In this document: positions 21,540 to 63,726 of the stretch, one piece after another
How the letters are laid out: each line of letters starts with the position of its first letter
Numbering within the stretch: the first letter of the stretch is position 1
Origin: Nocardioides sp.
GTDB taxonomy: Bacteria; Actinomycetota; Actinomycetes; Propionibacteriales; Nocardioidaceae
Assembly (NCBI RefSeq): GCF_036374615.1
Contig: NZ_DASUTK010000100.1
Span: forward strand, 5,103 to 69,102
Direction: 5' to 3'
Length of the DNA: 64,000 nucleotides
Translations under genes and position numbers: made by a program
The notes under the pieces: generated by a model
What the model was told of the DNA's origin: nothing
The model's database searches: none
Seen by the model: only the letters and a program-made list of their open reading frames with translations

Positions 21540-21612
21540 TATGGCACGGTGCCGGAGCGCCACAATAGGCGCCCGGCACCGCGGTGAACTGCGACGGGGG
21601 AGACACAGTTCG
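21540..21612 (-). ncRNA. Candidate small RNA of two hairpins, the first with a UCUCCCCCGU loop
   Basis: Follows TTGACT-N17-GACACT; stems gaactg/cagttc and cggtgccgg+gcgcc; no ORF. Confidence 0.5.
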
Positions 21613-21618
21613 GCTTCG

Positions 21619-21647
21619 AGTGTCCGGCCTTCCGGGCAGGAAGTCAA
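21619..21647 (-). promoter_or_regulatory. Sigma70-type promoter TTGACT-N17-GACACT
   Basis: -35 at 21642-21647, -10 at 21619-21624, spacer exactly 17 nt. Confidence 0.55.
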
Positions 21648-60676: not shown

Positions 60677-60902
60677 CGCTCGACCCGTGATCCGCGCCAC
60701 GCGGGAGTGAAGCGGTCGGCAACAGATCCCCGACCGTTCGGCAACAAGGCCTCCACGCCAGGGCAAATCGGGCCGTGGTCGGCGCTACCGGTACGTAGCC
60801 TTCTCCTCGCATCGACCCGATGCCGGCCATGTGGGGACAGGGCCGTAACCGTGGGCAATCGTGACTCCGGCCGCCGCATGGCCGCCGGGTCAGGGGGAAT
60901 CA

Positions 60903-62117
60903 ATGCGTCTCGCACTTCTTCAACTGCGCGCTGCCGTCATGGCCGTGGCCGTGCTGCTGCTCGGCCTGGTGGTCGTGGCCGCCCCGGCCAGCGCCGACGA
61001 CTCGTCGCTCCCGGACGGGTTCTACCTCTGCCATGCGACCGGCCAGGCGTCCGCCGTCGAGAGCGTCGGCCACTGGTCCCTGAACAGTCCGAACAGCGCC
61101 GGCGTGGCCGCCGGGCACATCGGCCACCAGAACGGCAACGACATCATCCCGCCGATCCCCGGGTTGCTGCCCGCCGGCCAGAACTGGACGGCCTACGGCC
61201 AGCAGGTGCACGCGAACCGGTGCGAGGTCCCGCGCCCGGCCCAGCCGCAGGCAGAGACCCGCGCCGTCCCGCGTACCGAGTCGGGCTGCGCCCTGGGCGG
61301 CGTCAGGTCCTGGGTCGACGTGTACTACCGGCCCTACGTCTGGAGCGACGGTGCGGGGCAGTGGGTGCTGGGTGACGAGACCGGTCCGGTCCGCACCGAG
61401 GAGTCGTTCGCGGCGTACTCGGACGGCACCTACTTCGACCTCTGCGCCACGGCGAAGCCGGCACCCGAGGTCCGGACGGTGGCGATGAGCTCTGCCTCGT
61501 GCGACCCGGCGGGTGTGACGGCGTGGTCTGACGTCTACACGACCGAGTACGTGTGGAACGCTGCTCAGCGCCGGTGGGTGGTCGGCCAGGAGACCGGCCC
61601 GGTGAAGGCCGGGGAGACCTTCGCGTCGTTCACCGACGACGAGTTCCTCGACGCGTGTGCTGCGCCGAAGCCCGCACCCGTCATCCGTGAGGTCGCCGGG
61701 GTGCAGGCTTCCTGCAAGACCCGCAGCACCACCACCTGGACCGACATCTACACGACCGAGTACGTGTGGAACGTCGAGACTCGGGCATGGGAGCTGGGTG
61801 AGGAGACCGGCCCGGTCCGCACCGACGAGACGCACGTCGAGTACTCCGAGGAGGACCTCGCCGAGCACTGTTCCGAGGTCAGCGGCGAGACGGAGGCGAA
61901 CGTTCCGGCGGCCCCGACCGCTCCGACCGGGTCGGACGCCGACGCGCCGGCGGCCGGACCCGCGACAGCGGTGCCGACGGTCGTCAACGCTGGTGTCGGC
62001 ACAGAGATCGTCCCATCGACCCAGAACCCCGATCCGATGTGGCTGATGGCCCTCGGTGCCGGGCTCGGCCTGATGGGCGCCGCCGGCTTGCGCCGGCGGG
62101 CGACGGCGAACCGGTAG
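60903..62117 (+). CDS. Secreted surface protein with three 71-aa repeats and a sortase-like C-terminal signal
   Basis: Signal peptide (APASA); repeats with Cys at aa 129/200/271; VPTVVNAG + TM + RRR tail; RBS AGGGGGAA. Confidence 0.85.
   Translation: MRLALLQLRAAVMAVAVLLLGLVVVAAPASADDSSLPDGFYLCHATGQASAVESVGHWSLNSPNSAGVAAGHIGHQNGNDIIPPIPGLLPAGQNWTAYGQQVHANRCEVPRPAQPQAETRAVPRTESGCALGGVRSWVDVYYRPYVWSDGAGQWVLGDETGPVRTEESFAAYSDGTYFDLCATAKPAPEVRTVAMSSASCDPAGVTAWSDVYTTEYVWNAAQRRWVVGQETGPVKAGETFASFTDDEFLDACAAPKPAPVIREVAGVQASCKTRSTTTWTDIYTTEYVWNVETRAWELGEETGPVRTDETHVEYSEEDLAEHCSEVSGETEANVPAAPTAPTGSDADAPAAGPATAVPTVVNAGVGTEIVPSTQNPDPMWLMALGAGLGLMGAAGLRRRATANR
61254..61892 (+). repeat. Three tandem 213-nt (71-aa) intragenic repeats
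   Basis: Consensus C-x7-W-x-D-[VI]-Y-x3-Y-V-W-x6-W-x2-G-x-ETGPV...C. Confidence 0.85.
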
Positions 62118-62296: not shown

Positions 62297-62815
62297 CTAG
62301 CTCGGGTCGCTGAAGTTCAGGACGCCGATGACGCGTCCGTCGCCGTCGATCCGGACGCCGATGCCGGCCCAGCGCGCCCGCTTCTTCAAGATCACCGCAC
62401 GGTGCGAGGGCGAGTCGAGCCACGCACTGACCGCCACGCGGGGGGTGAGGCCGGTCCCGCGCACGAGGGCCTCGCCGGTCCAGGTCAGGTCGCAACCGTC
62501 GAGAACCTTCACCTGGTTGCGATGCGCGAGCTCCCCGGTCCGCTTGATGAGCTCGGCCCAGCGTTCGGAGTAACGGTCGACGCAGGACTGGAACACCCGG
62601 ACCCGCTTCAGGCCGGCGGCGACGCGGGCCCGGTTGATCTCCCTGAGGACGCGGTTCTCGAACTCGTCGAGGTCCTGAAGGGGGTCGACCGCCGGATTCG
62701 CCTTGGGACCTACCCAGGTCTTGGCCTCCGCCGAGCCCAGCACGAGGGCGGTGCCGCCGACGGTGAGGCCGACCGACAGGACCACGATCGCGATGGCTCG
62801 CGCGAGCTGGCGCAT
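62297..62815 (-). CDS. Secreted CAP (SCP/PR-1) domain protein
   Basis: Signal peptide; INRARVAAGL, GEAL, WLDSPSHRAVIL, GIGV. Confidence 0.87.
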   Translation of the reverse strand: MRQLARAIAIVVLSVGLTVGGTALVLGSAEAKTWVGPKANPAVDPLQDLDEFENRVLREINRARVAAGLKRVRVFQSCVDRYSERWAELIKRTGELAHRNQVKVLDGCDLTWTGEALVRGTGLTPRVAVSAWLDSPSHRAVILKKRARWAGIGVRIDGDGRVIGVLNFSDPS

Positions 62816-62987
62816 GGAGGCTCCGTCGTCGGGGCCACCGGGGGATGGCCGTCTGGGGGTCGGTGTGTGCGGTGCTGGTCGACCGTGGCGGCCGACGGGG
62901 GGATCGGCCACCTCGGTCGTGCGGCGTGCGTACACGGGGGAAGAACGCAGCACCCACAGTTTGGTAACACATCCTCACGTCCCGCAA
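62816..62987 (-). promoter_or_regulatory. Putative promoter (TTGCGG-N18-CAAACT) and ~135-nt leader with three C-rich-loop hairpins
   Basis: Minus-strand hairpins tgcgt-tcttcccccgtgt-acgca, ggccga-tccccccg-tcggcc, ggccat-cccccg-gtggcc. Confidence 0.55.
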
Positions 62988-63060
62988 TGGCACGAAGTGA
63001 CTAGCCGTGGATGCCACGAGAACCACCTCGGCTGGTCACTCCGTCGCCGATACTGGCTGC

Positions 63061-63726
63061 ATGGACACTGACGACCGGCCCCAGCAGCGGGCTCCGACCG
63101 GCGGCCGCTGGGTCGCGTCGGCGCTGCTCGTGGCCGGTGTCGTGCTGCTCGTCGTCGGCGTCGTGGCCTGGGTCCAGCAGTCGGGTGACCCCGGACCGGA
63201 GGCGGCCGGACCGACTGCCACTGATGGCACCGGCGAGCAGGAGGTGGTCGACAGCCCGGACCTGCCGAACGCCGAGCGGGCGTCGTGGAGGCCCGGTGCC
63301 CCGCGACGGGTGCTCGTACCCGTGCTCGACATCGATGCCCCCGTGGTGCCGATCGAGGCGCCGGGCGGGGTGCTCACGCCTCCGGCGGACCCTCAGGTCC
63401 TGGGGTGGTGGGCCGCGGGTGCCAAGCCGGGTGCTCGCACCGGTTCCGCGCTCGTGACCGGCCACACCGTGCACTCCGGAGGCGGGGCGATGGACGACCT
63501 CGAGCAGGTCGAGGCGGGCGACCGGATCTGGGTGCGCACCGCCCGCGGCAAGCTCGGGTACGACGTGCGCTCGGTGGTCGTGCTCGGCAAGGGCGAGCTC
63601 GCCGAGCGCGCGGAGCGCCTGTTCAGTCAGCAGGTGCCCGGCAGGCTGGTCCTGATCACGTGTGAGGACTGGAACGGCGTGGAGTACCTCAGCAACGTCG
63701 TCGTGACGGCGACGCCGAGCGCGTGA
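63061..63726 (+). CDS. Class F sortase
   Basis: N-terminal TM; GWW, GSALVTGH, LVLITC catalytic motif; no canonical Arg after the Cys, as in actinobacterial class F. Confidence 0.88.
   Translation: MDTDDRPQQRAPTGGRWVASALLVAGVVLLVVGVVAWVQQSGDPGPEAAGPTATDGTGEQEVVDSPDLPNAERASWRPGAPRRVLVPVLDIDAPVVPIEAPGGVLTPPADPQVLGWWAAGAKPGARTGSALVTGHTVHSGGGAMDDLEQVEAGDRIWVRTARGKLGYDVRSVVVLGKGELAERAERLFSQQVPGRLVLITCEDWNGVEYLSNVVVTATPSA

What the first reader, a model, noticed from the sequence alone, without database searches (positions are those of the whole stretch)
62816..62987. Array of U-C5/6-G hairpin loops in a long leader, matching the sRNA loop 41 kb away
Seen on the minus strand: three stems with loops containing UCCCCCG or UCCCCCCG (plus-strand G runs 62936-62940, 62897-62902, 62840-62844), a fourth C5 run (62855-62859), and a start codon 24 nt after the last loop's C run. 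The sRNA candidate at 21586-21611 has the same UCCCCCG loop. Established: Csr/Rsm systems use repeated GGA loops in both sRNAs and target leaders. Inference: an analogous C-loop system in which one RNA-binding protein reads these leaders and is titrated by C-loop sRNAs; alternatively the leader is itself a multi-loop sRNA.
Basis: partly seen in the sequence, partly recalled or inferred. Interest (0 to 1): 0.68.

Follow-up and report, generated by a model that had tools for sequence, protein, structure and literature searches.

The report
C-loop leader RNA of secreted-protein gene
The hairpins are real: they form a conserved, folded leader in front of a secreted-protein gene in a small group of soil actinobacteria, each hairpin displays a run of cytosines, and those runs probably pair with the matching run of guanines at the ribosome-binding site of the neighbouring surface-protein gene.

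Summary
The 245-nt gap between a secreted CAP/SCP-domain gene (minus strand, ATG 62815) and a leaderless sortase gene (plus strand, ATG 63061) holds minus-strand hairpins P1, P2 and P4. Their loops carry C5, C6 and C5, and a fourth C5 is unpaired.

Twelve orthologous leaders keep this architecture. Stems covary: 96.9% of cells pair, and 8 pairs changed on both sides. G-U pairs favour the minus strand (20 against 5). A covariance model finds one copy per genome in 11 of 401 genomes of the genus, always before this gene. Rfam has no match. The genome's own 6C homologue lies elsewhere.

C-run hairpins are no commoner than in shuffles, leaders show no strand bias, and CsrA is absent.

The new lead is a partner. 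The adjacent surface-protein gene has a G5-G7 run at its ribosome-binding site in 12 of 12 genomes carrying the array.

My best reading is a dual-function leader that pairs through C:G runs, like 6C or S. aureus RNAIII. That mechanism is inferred. No expression data could be obtained. I class it as a new variant of a known kind.

The parts
62984..63003 (-). Conserved upstream block TAGTCACTTCGTGCCATTGC. It holds a -35-like TTGCGG at 62987-62982.
   Evidence: Block TAGTCAnTTCGnGCnATTGC is present in the orthologous loci. It is unique in the genome. The promoter role is inferred. The consensus scan found no sigma-70 match.
62955..62969 (-). Invariant box TGTTACCAAACTGTG. It holds a -10-like CAAACT at 62963-62958, 18 nt after TTGCGG in the window (17-18 nt in the orthologues). 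This is a candidate promoter or operator. The TSS is expected near 62950.
   Evidence: The box is identical in all leaders but one (GTTACCAGACTGTG in L023). It occurs once in the genome. Its function is inferred.
62927..62949 (-). Hairpin P1: 5-bp stem UGCGU/ACGCA with 13-nt loop UCUUCCCCCGUGU (C5 at 62940-62936). This is the weakest and least conserved hairpin.
   Evidence: Sequence. Orthologues mostly have a different C-loop hairpin or an unpaired C6 at this place. UUCCCCC is complementary to GGGGGAA of the neighbour's ribosome-binding site.
62887..62912 (-). Hairpin P2: GGUGGCCGA / UCGGCCGCC with loop UCCCCCCG (C6 at 62902-62897). In the window an outer helix extends it to 62918-62881.
   Evidence: It is helix 1 of the alignment: 9 pairs, 4 with changes on both sides, 98.1% of cells paired.
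62851..62886 (-). C-rich, G-poor linker with an unpaired C5 (62859-62855). In most orthologues this stretch holds hairpin P3 (loop CGACCCA) followed by AGCCCAC. P3 is degenerate in the window's own copy.
   Evidence: helix 2: 7 pairs, 3 with changes on both sides, 93.6% paired across orthologues.
62833..62850 (-). Hairpin P4: GGCCA(U) / (G)UGGCC with a loop carrying C5 (62844-62840).
   Evidence: It is helix 3: 6 pairs, 98.6% of cells paired, with a C-G to U-A change via U-G.
62813..62824 (-). Translation start region: SD GGAG (62824-62821), spacer CCUCC, ATG (62815-62813). Most orthologues read GGAGCCCCCC(A)AUG, with a C-run between SD and AUG.
   Evidence: ACGGAGC is invariant in the 8- and 9-sequence alignments; L216, added later, reads CUCGGAGC.
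62297..62815 (-). Gene served by the leader: a 172-aa secreted CAP/SCP/PR-1-like protein with a signal peptide.
   Evidence: Pfam CAP PF00188, E = 1.1e-05, above the cut-off. The start was chosen by coding score and SD.
60893..60905 (+). Proposed pairing partner: the ribosome-binding site GGGGGAAUCA-AUG of the convergent surface-protein gene (sortase substrate candidate). G5 is at 60893-60897 and the ATG at 60903.
   Evidence: A G5-G7 run precedes the start of the corresponding surface-protein genes in 12 of 12 genomes with the array. Other genes in comparable loci show this in 6.4% of cases. The pairing itself is inferred.
63061..63726 (+). Divergent sortase gene (context). It is apparently leaderless: a -10-like GATACT ends 6 nt before the ATG in the window (6-7 nt in the orthologues). 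The hairpins are therefore not part of its mRNA.
   Evidence: Pfam Sortase, E = 2.4e-16. CCAGTATC is conserved just upstream of the start in the orthologues. The leaderless status is inferred.
21540..21647 (-). Related but separate element: a small-RNA gene. It has -35 TTGACT (21647-21642), a 17-nt spacer, -10 GACACT (21624-21619), a hairpin at 21611-21586 with loop UCUCCCCCGU, and a terminator hairpin at about 21580-21546.
   Evidence: It is conserved with covarying terminator stems in G028, G150, G024 and G126 (shown); G141 has a DNA match only. There is a weak, non-significant likeness to Scr3202 (E = 5).

Best explanation
The region is the structured 5' leader, about 135 nt long, of the mRNA for a small secreted CAP-domain protein. 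It is transcribed on the minus strand from a promoter at or near the invariant box TGTTACCAAACTGTG. The leader folds into three or four hairpins whose only conserved job is to display C5-C7 runs in their loops. Further C-runs lie unpaired and, in most relatives, directly between the Shine-Dalgarno sequence and the AUG.

The most likely mode of action is G:C-run base pairing without a chaperone, as shown for the actinobacterial 6C sRNA and for the C-rich loops of S. aureus RNAIII. The U-C5/6 loops are complementary to the G5/6-A word that forms the ribosome-binding site of the neighbouring surface-protein mRNA, a presumed sortase substrate. Pairing would mask that site. Reciprocally, the G-run could mask the C-run in the CAP start region. 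Either way, the output of the secreted protein and of the wall-anchored protein in the same locus would be coupled.

What is shown and what is inferred:
- Shown: the structure, its conservation, the strand, the single copy per genome, and the conserved complementary G-run next door.
- Inferred: transcription start, pairing, direction and sign of regulation.

Confidence that this is a real, conserved, structured cis-leader RNA is about 0.9. Confidence that it works by C-run:G-run RNA pairing is about 0.4. The figure reported below is for the whole statement.
For: Anatomy is confirmed.

Conservation:
- Orthologous leaders down to 57% protein identity keep hairpins with C5-C7 loops while the stem sequences differ. 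An example is L027, with four different stems.
- On 12 leaders, 96.9% of pair cells are standard pairs, against 15-53% when partners are slid.
- 8 pairs show changes on both sides, in 21 cells. No shuffle out of 500 reaches the observed covariation score.

Strand and transcript:
- 20 G-U cells against 5 A-C cells favour the minus strand.
- There is no terminator and no room for a promoter between P4 and the ATG.
- The opposite gene looks leaderless.

Family and distribution:
- One model hit per genome in 11 of 401 genomes of the genus, always before this gene.
- It is not the 6C orthologue. There is no Rfam hit at E<=10, and a full-length 6C-like RNA lies elsewhere, at C231 (31.3 bits).
- More distant CAP orthologues with other promoters still keep a C5-6 hairpin loop or C-runs hugging the SD.

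Partner:
- The surface-protein gene's ribosome-binding site reads GGGGGAA in the window.
- G5-G7 runs, often two, precede the start in 12 of 12 array-bearing genomes, although the N-terminal domains and flanks differ.
- Where the CAP gene instead heads an ABC-2 transporter operon, the next gene has a G5+ run within 45 nt of its start in 10 of 15 loci. The rate is 20 of 312 for other genes in those loci.

Precedent:
- 6C C-rich loops pair with G-rich ribosome-binding sites without a chaperone (PMC6486639).
- RNAIII C-rich loops bind G-rich SD regions of surface-protein mRNAs by loop-loop contacts (PMC2837412).
Against: - The TSS, the transcript ends and even transcription are unproven.
- The complementarity is mainly a homopolymer run (6-9 bp), and the flanks do not co-vary convincingly (my reading).
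- About 5% of genes in this genome have a G5+ run near the start, so the leader could act on many genes or on none in particular.
- The G-run at the surface-protein gene also occurs where the CAP leader has no C-run (L250). It is therefore older than the array and may serve other C-loop RNAs instead.
- Within the operon clade, co-occurrence of the C-run and G-run cannot be separated from shared ancestry (9/4/1/1).
- Counts across genomes are not phylogenetically independent.
- A duplex-energy ranking without accessibility was uninformative.
- The G-runs are only partly unpaired in predicted folds.
Confidence: 0.4

Rival explanations
1. Protein-binding leader. A so-far unknown RNA-binding protein with preference for C-runs (for example a KH-type protein) binds the loop C-runs and the C-run next to the SD. 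It represses or activates translation of the CAP gene, as CsrA does through GGA loops. C-loop sRNAs (6C, the 21.6-kb sRNA) would titrate it.
For: The form fits:
- Repeated identical words are displayed in hairpin loops, with one site between SD and AUG in most orthologues.
- C-runs hug the SD even in distant orthologues with other leaders.
- The same word occurs in two sRNA-like genes of the genome.
- Actinobacteria lack Hfq and ProQ, and a chaperone has been postulated (discussion in PMC6486639).
Against: - There is no genome-wide enrichment of C-loop hairpins and no strand bias of C-runs in leaders.
- The array is unique to one gene.
- CsrA is absent, and no candidate protein was identified.
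- For 6C the published data show direct pairing independent of chaperones (PMC6486639).
- A complementary G-run partner exists next door, which this model does not need.
Confidence: 0.15
2. Rho-dependent attenuator. The C-rich, G-poor unpaired parts of the leader act as a rut site. Transcription of the CAP gene is then terminated prematurely unless ribosomes or a partner RNA cover the site.
For: - Unpaired alignment columns are 55% C and 18% G. C over G in unstructured RNA is the established hallmark of rut sites.
- Rho is encoded in 5 of 5 relatives that carry the leader.
Against: - Rho needs no precise C5-6 runs closed into small loops by strong covarying stems. The conserved U-C(n)-G loop words and the C-run in the SD-AUG spacer are not explained.
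- The unstructured C-rich stretch is short, about 35 nt in the window.
- The Rho RNA-binding domain was not found in this assembly, probably because it is only 92% complete.
Confidence: 0.1
3. Stand-alone or processed small RNA. Transcription mostly ends, or the RNA is cut, after P2 or P4. This would give a 6C-like multi-loop sRNA that acts only in trans, with the CAP gene expressed by read-through.
For: - The design resembles 6C and other C-loop sRNAs.
- Actinobacterial terminators often lack U-tails (general knowledge).
- P2 is a strong 9-10-bp G+C-rich stem.
Against: - There is no U-tract after any hairpin and no terminator-like site.
- P4 ends only about 8 nt before the SD.
- The element is always fixed before the CAP gene's SD.
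- The invariant SD and the C-run spacer are part of the conserved block.
Confidence: 0.12
4. No RNA-level recognition role. The hairpins merely stabilise the 5' end of the mRNA, or the runs act at the DNA level: G-quadruplex on the plus strand, or slippage-prone homopolymers giving phase variation.
For: - Four or more G5-6 runs lie on one DNA strand within about 100 nt.
- Run lengths differ between near-identical assemblies: L022 C3, L026 C4, others C5.
- 5' hairpins are known to protect mRNAs (general knowledge).
Against: - Stems covary and use G-U pairs on one strand only, 20 against 5, which points to RNA.
- Runs closed into 6-8-nt loops cannot stack into tetrads.
- Mere stabilisers would not keep the loop sequence.
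- The length differences are between long-read metagenome bins, where homopolymer miscalls are common (inference).
- No conserved upstream reading frame exists that would read the runs as poly-proline.
Confidence: 0.05

Closest known systems
6C RNA (Rfam RF01066; B11 / ncRv13660c in mycobacteria)
   Same: - It is actinobacterial.
- Hairpins have loops that carry runs of five to seven C.
- The C-rich loops are the working part and pair with G-rich single-stranded ribosome-binding sites without a chaperone (PMC6486639).
- The loop word UCCCCC(C)G is of the same type.
   Different: - The Rfam model does not detect it.
- The genome has its own 6C-like RNA elsewhere.
- It has three or four hairpins plus unpaired C-runs instead of two adjacent hairpins.
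- It has no terminator and is fused to the SD of a protein-coding gene.
- It is restricted to 11 of 401 genomes of one genus, whereas 6C is spread over the phylum.
Staphylococcus aureus RNAIII
   Same: It works like this in form. An mRNA for a small exported product also carries several hairpins with C-rich loops. Those loops bind G-rich SD regions of mRNAs for cell-surface proteins, partly by two loop-loop contacts (PMC2837412). Here the neighbouring target candidate is likewise a surface protein, often with two G-runs.
   Different: - There is no sequence or structural homology.
- It comes from a different phylum.
- No quorum-sensing locus is nearby.
- The regulatory hairpins lie in the 5' leader rather than in the 3' and central domains.
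- Nothing has been tested experimentally.
RepG sRNA and the G-repeat of the tlpB leader in Helicobacter pylori
   Same: A C/U-rich loop of an RNA pairs with a homopolymeric G-run in the leader of a target mRNA, and the run length tunes the outcome (PMC8295292). Here G-run length varies from 5 to 7 between genomes.
   Different: - RepG is a stand-alone sRNA.
- The G-repeat there is longer and phase-variable.
- No evidence here for within-population length variation.
CsrA/RsmA with CsrB-type decoy RNAs
   Same: A short word is repeated in hairpin loops of a leader, with one copy at the translation start. The same word also occurs in small RNAs.
   Different: - The word is a C-run, not GGA.
- CsrA is absent.
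- No regulon-wide signal was found.
- No binding protein is known.

Membership tests
6C RNA (RF01066) | Scores at or above the Rfam gathering threshold (47 bits) with the family covariance model | tested here: not met
   No family reached its gathering score in the window. No 6C match was found even at E<=10 in 62600-63200.
6C RNA (RF01066) | Two directly adjacent hairpins, each with a loop run of about six C | tested here: inconclusive
   P2 (C6) and P4 (C5) have C-run loops. They lie about 36 nt apart, with a third helix or linker between them, and there are further C-run sites.
6C RNA (RF01066) | It is the genome's single orthologous 6C locus | tested here: not met
   A full-length 6C-like RNA (31.3 bits, model positions 1-75) lies at G000:C231, locus L063 554-619.
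Stand-alone trans-acting sRNA | Own terminator, and separation from the downstream coding gene | tested here: not met
   There is no terminator-like site. P4 ends about 8 nt before the SD.
Csr/Rsm-type protein titration system | Presence of the RNA-binding protein (CsrA family) | tested here: not met
   PF02599 was not found in the assembly, while the control genomes were positive. A different, unknown protein cannot be excluded.
Csr/Rsm-type protein titration system | The loop word is enriched in leaders of many target genes | tested here: not met
   Stem-flanked C-runs match the shuffled controls. Sense C5+ against G5+ in upstream regions is 382 against 379. The array occurs once per genome.
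Conserved structured cis-regulatory leader RNA | Conserved secondary structure with compensatory changes, at a fixed position before one gene family | tested here: met
   96.9% of cells are paired, and 8 pairs show double-sided changes. Slid controls give 15-53%. The element always sits before the CAP gene's SD.
C-rich-loop anti-SD-type riboregulators (6C, RNAIII, UCCC-motif sRNAs) | An accessible C-rich loop complementary to a G-rich ribosome-binding site of a target | tested here: met
   UUCCCCC and UCCCCC(C) loops face GGGGGAA and GGGGGGA at the surface-protein gene start. This shows complementarity only.
C-rich-loop anti-SD-type riboregulators (6C, RNAIII, UCCC-motif sRNAs) | Demonstrated pairing and a regulatory effect on the target | not testable with these tools
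   This needs binding assays and reporter fusions with compensatory mutations.
Rho-dependent leader attenuator | C-rich, G-poor unpaired RNA upstream of the termination zone | tested here: met
   Unpaired columns are 55% C and 18% G. Dependence on Rho is not testable here.

The most novel reading that the evidence does not exclude
Actinobacteria, which lack Hfq, ProQ and CsrA, possess a still unknown global RNA-binding protein that reads U-C5/6-G hairpin loops. The CAP leader would be one of its mRNA targets, with one site overlapping the translation start. 6C and the other C-loop sRNAs would be its decoys. That would be a Csr-like post-transcriptional system built on a different word and a different protein.
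Probability: 0.08. Interest if true: 0.9.

Novelty: new variant of a known kind. Interest (0 to 1): 0.52.

Why it matters
C-rich hairpin loops that pair with G-rich ribosome-binding sites are the one mechanistic theme known for riboregulation in high-G+C Gram-positive bacteria. So far it is known mainly from stand-alone sRNAs such as 6C.

Here the same device is built into the leader of a protein-coding mRNA. It forms an array, and a conserved complementary G-run sits at the start of the adjacent surface-protein gene in a sortase locus.

If the pairing is real, it would be an mRNA-to-mRNA switch coupling a secreted protein and a wall-anchored protein. That is an actinobacterial counterpart of RNAIII logic, with an obvious target for testing.

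It also gives a clean, small test system of two short RNAs. With it one can ask whether C-run:G-run kissing is enough on its own, or whether a protein is needed. That question is still open for actinobacteria.

Tried and rejected
- **Rfam.** Nothing reached gathering score in the whole window. The local E-value scans gave only chance hits: MIR5229 and P5, and Scr3202 at E = 5 for the 21.6-kb hairpin.
- **6C in the own genome via the genome search.** No hit. The 6C-like RNA was found only after my own hairpin scan pointed to C231.
- **Genome-wide enrichment of stem-C5+-stem.** Not found.
- **Strand bias of C-runs in leaders.** Not found.
- **DNA similarity search in 60 relatives.** Only two partial orthologous matches. 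Orthologues had to be reached through the protein.
- **Metagenome scan for the 15-nt box.** 120 stretches, nearly all chance. One new instance, L113.
- **Long-range pairing of GUUACC with the SD.** RNAalifold proposed it. Both sides are invariant, so it is untestable, and the box is probably promoter DNA.
- **Upstream reading frame reading the C-runs as Pro-Pro (stalling peptide).** Rejected, because the frame is broken by stops in several orthologues.
- **RNAduplex ranking of all translation start regions against the leader.** Uninformative in this G+C-rich genome.
- **Exact-complement ranking.** The neighbour is one of few genes with GGGGGAA, but this is still only a run.
- **Signal-peptide enrichment among G5-run genes.** Marginal with a crude predictor: 13.4% against 8.3%, p = 0.045. 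I do not rely on it.
- **Co-occurrence of the C-run leader and G-run partner within the operon clade.** Not separable from ancestry.
- **16S 3' end.** Not in the assembly. The likeness of GAUCCCCCC to the anti-SD tail GAUCACCUCC therefore rests on general knowledge only.

Full report
**Setting.** The window is contig C100:5103-69102 of a 3.74-Mb, 241-contig assembly with 70.8% G+C. Close relatives are metagenome bins titled "uncultured Actinomycetota bacterium". The finding lies in a 245-nt gap between two divergent genes:
- On the minus strand is a 172-aa protein with a signal peptide and a CAP/SCP domain (Pfam PF00188; ATG 62815).
- On the plus strand is a sortase (PF04203; ATG 63061).
- Convergent with the CAP gene is a 404-aa surface protein (ATG 60903), which another first-stage note treats as the sortase substrate.

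**The observation.**
- P1 is 62949-62927, a 5-bp stem with loop UCUUCCCCCGUGU.
- P2 is 62912-62887, a 9-10-bp stem with loop UCCCCCCG.
- P4 is 62850-62833, a 5-6-bp stem with a C5 loop.
- An unpaired C5 lies at 62859-62855.
- SD GGAG is at 62824-62821, and the ATG follows the last C-run by 24 nt.
- The hairpin at 21586-21611 has loop UCUCCCCCGU.

Taken alone the sequence is not statistically remarkable:
- The fold z-score is -1.4.
- In this G+C-rich genome a C5+ run is flanked by a short stem as often as with shuffled flanks. The exception is long intergenic stems, 18 observed against 3 expected.
- Two or more C-loop hairpins within 120 nt on one strand occur only twice in intergenic DNA. One place is here. 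The other, at contig C231, is the genome's 6C homologue.

**Conservation and structure.**
- DNA search found little, so I reached orthologues through the CAP protein and later through a covariance model.
- Every close orthologue (57-79% protein identity) has the same plan in front of the CAP gene:
  - an invariant box TGTTACCAAACTGTG;
  - a variable first hairpin or unpaired C6;
  - P2 with a C5-C6 loop;
  - P3 with loop CGACCCA or CCCA;
  - a single-stranded AGCCCAC;
  - P4 with a C5-C6 loop;
  - then ACGGAGC-CCCCCC-AUG.
- The most distant array-bearing copy (L027) has four hairpins with entirely different stems, each with a C5-C6 loop, plus two unpaired C6 runs.
- On 12 distinct leaders:
  - 96.9% of pair cells are standard pairs, against 15-53% when partners are slid by 1-3 columns.
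  - Eight pairs have changes on both sides, in 21 cells.
  - No shuffle of 500 reaches the observed covariation score.
  - That alignment was fitted to the model, which favours the structure. A plain MAFFT alignment of nine sequences gave the same picture.
- G-U cells outnumber A-C cells 20 to 5, so the folded molecule is the minus-strand RNA.
- In the window's own copy P3 is degenerate and is replaced by a CA- and C-rich linker carrying the fourth C-run.

**Leader, not separate gene.**
- P4 ends about 8 nt before the SD.
- No terminator-like site exists.
- No promoter could fit between P4 and the ATG.
- On the other strand the sortase gene has a conserved -10-like GATACT ending 6-7 nt before its start codon (CCAGTATC on the minus strand in all orthologues). 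That is the pattern of a leaderless mRNA, so the hairpins are not in the sortase transcript.
- A weak sigma-70-like promoter (TTGCnn, 17-18 nt, CAAACT) can be read into the two conserved upstream blocks. This is inference: the consensus scan found nothing, and a 15-nt invariant box suggests an operator as well.
- The box occurs once in the genome.
- No conserved upstream reading frame exists.

**Distribution.**
- The covariance model hits exactly one place per genome in 11 of 401 genomes of the genus, always this leader.
- More distant CAP orthologues (37-59% identity) have other leaders and other promoter boxes (repeated TCAAGAT).
- Most of them still keep one hairpin with a C5-C6 loop just before the SD, or C-runs on either side of the SD. 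C-runs at the start of this gene family are therefore older than the array.

- No enrichment of stem-C5+-stem was found.
- Sense-strand C5+ and G5+ runs in upstream regions number 382 and 379.
- There is one array per genome, and no CsrA.
- The genome does hold other C-loop RNAs:
  - a 6C-like RNA;
  - the 21.6-kb element, which I find to be a good sRNA gene. It has TTGACT-17-GACACT, a nearly invariant hairpin GAACUGUG-UCUCCCCCGU-CGCAGUUC, and a covarying terminator hairpin. These features are seen in G028, G150, G024 and G126; G141 gave a DNA match only;
  - single hairpins with the same loop elsewhere.
- The shared loop word is therefore real. It marks a class of RNAs rather than a class of leaders.

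**The partner.**
- The published mechanism for 6C is pairing of its C-rich loops with G-rich, single-stranded ribosome-binding sites without a chaperone (PMC6486639).
- I therefore looked for G-runs nearby. The convergent surface-protein gene starts with CAGGGGGAAUCA-AUG. GGGGGAA is the exact complement of UUCCCCC in the P1 loop, and GGGGGA of UCCCCC in P2 and P4.
- In all 12 genomes with the array, the surface-protein gene or genes of the locus are preceded by one or two G5-G7 runs within about 35 nt of the start. This holds although their N-terminal domains, start codons and flanks differ.
- The best matches reach 8-9 bp, for example CCGGGGGGA against UCCCCCCGG in G028.
- In the other genomic arrangement the CAP gene heads an ABC-2 transporter operon. 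There the next gene has a G5+ run within 45 nt of its start in 10 of 15 loci, against 20 of 312 (6.4%) for the other genes in the same loci.

*Caveats on the partner.*
- These counts are not phylogenetically independent.
- About 5% of all genes in this genome have such a run.
- The G-run persists where the CAP leader has no C-run (L250).
- Within the operon clade co-occurrence cannot be told from ancestry.
- Flanks do not co-vary clearly.
- The G-runs are only partly unpaired in predicted folds.

**Mechanism.** I commit to a dual-function leader. As part of the CAP mRNA it displays C-runs that pair with G-run ribosome-binding sites, most plausibly that of the neighbouring surface-protein mRNA. 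Two loops may meet two G-runs, as RNAIII does with rot mRNA (PMC2837412). The C-run in the CAP start region would allow the reverse effect on CAP translation. The sign and direction of regulation are unknown.

The rivals, with my estimates, are:
- a C-run-binding protein (0.15);
- a processed or terminated sRNA (0.12);
- a Rho loading site (0.10). Unpaired positions are 55% C and 18% G, and Rho is present in 5 of 5 relatives;
- mere stabilisation or DNA-level effects (0.05).

**Comparison with what is known.** It works like 6C, RNAIII and RepG (PMC6486639, PMC2837412, PMC8295292). It is not a member of the 6C family: the Rfam model does not see it, the genome has its own 6C-like RNA, and it is not a stand-alone RNA. 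No Rfam family matches. Earlier notes of this scan list several uncatalogued C-loop RNAs in Actinomycetota, and one C-loop leader before a surface-protein gene in another phylum. The theme is therefore recurrent, and this is a new variant of it.

**Limits.** Gene calls outside the window are my own crude GC3/codon-score calls. Homopolymer lengths in long-read bins may contain errors.

Noticed in passing
window 21540-21647 (minus): A well-formed small-RNA gene. It has TTGACT-17-GACACT, a 5' hairpin with loop UCUCCCCCGU, and a terminator hairpin. It lies 56 nt after the stop of a minus-strand gene. Promoter, hairpin and covarying terminator stems are kept in four other genomes of the genus, and a fifth gives a DNA match. 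There is only a chance-level likeness to Scr3202.
   Followed up: partly
G000:C231:34353-34418 (minus); locus L063 554-619: The genome's 6C-like RNA. Two adjacent long hairpins have C7 and C5 loops. It is a full-length match to RF01066 at 31.3 bits, below the gathering score of 47, so standard annotation would miss it.
   Followed up: partly
G000:C65:23113, C209:6523, C223:29389 (minus strands): Further intergenic hairpins with the loop word UCUCCCCC(GU). The one on C65 has a 16-bp stem and the identical loop UCUCCCCCGU. They may be more C-loop sRNAs or terminators.
   Followed up: no
window 63040-63063: The sortase gene appears leaderless. A -10-like GATACT ends 6 nt before its ATG in the window (6-7 nt in the orthologues), and this spacing is kept in all orthologous loci.
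   Followed up: partly
loci L233-L243 (relatives): In another subclade the CAP gene heads an operon with two ABC-2 permease genes and an ATPase gene. It is preceded by repeated TCAAGAT(T/C) boxes, a likely regulator site. The permease gene has the ribosome-binding site GAGGGGGAAGC.
   Followed up: partly
locus L246 (G126), CAP leader: Here a C5 run and a G6 run pair with each other in one hairpin (GACCCCC...GGGGGGUC) just before the SD. It is a cis version of the C-run:G-run contact proposed in trans.
   Followed up: no
loci L223, L224, L225, L228: Surface-protein genes of the HQGNITAVGQCQPNG type seem to start at TTG right after GGGGGGAAC(ACCACC)/GGGGGGAAUCUCC and carry a second G6 in or next to a small hairpin about 15 nt upstream. 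The surface-protein N-terminal domains differ between otherwise syntenic loci.
   Followed up: partly
own genome, C129:2338, C182:6413, C228:7028: Three other genes share the ribosome-binding word GGGGG(G)AAUC with the surface-protein gene. They encode a secreted trypsin-like protease, an aquaporin-like channel and a secreted beta-propeller-like protein. They are candidate targets of C-loop RNAs.
   Followed up: no
loci L022 vs L026 (near-identical bins), P4 loop: The P4 loop run reads C3 in one bin and C4 in the other, where other genomes have C5-C6. L026 also has a frameshifted CAP gene. Homopolymer miscalls in long-read bins are the likely cause, but real slippage is not excluded.
   Followed up: no
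own genome: The Rho RNA-binding domain (PF07497) is not found in this 92%-complete assembly, but it is present in five of five close relatives. It probably lies in the missing part.
   Followed up: yes
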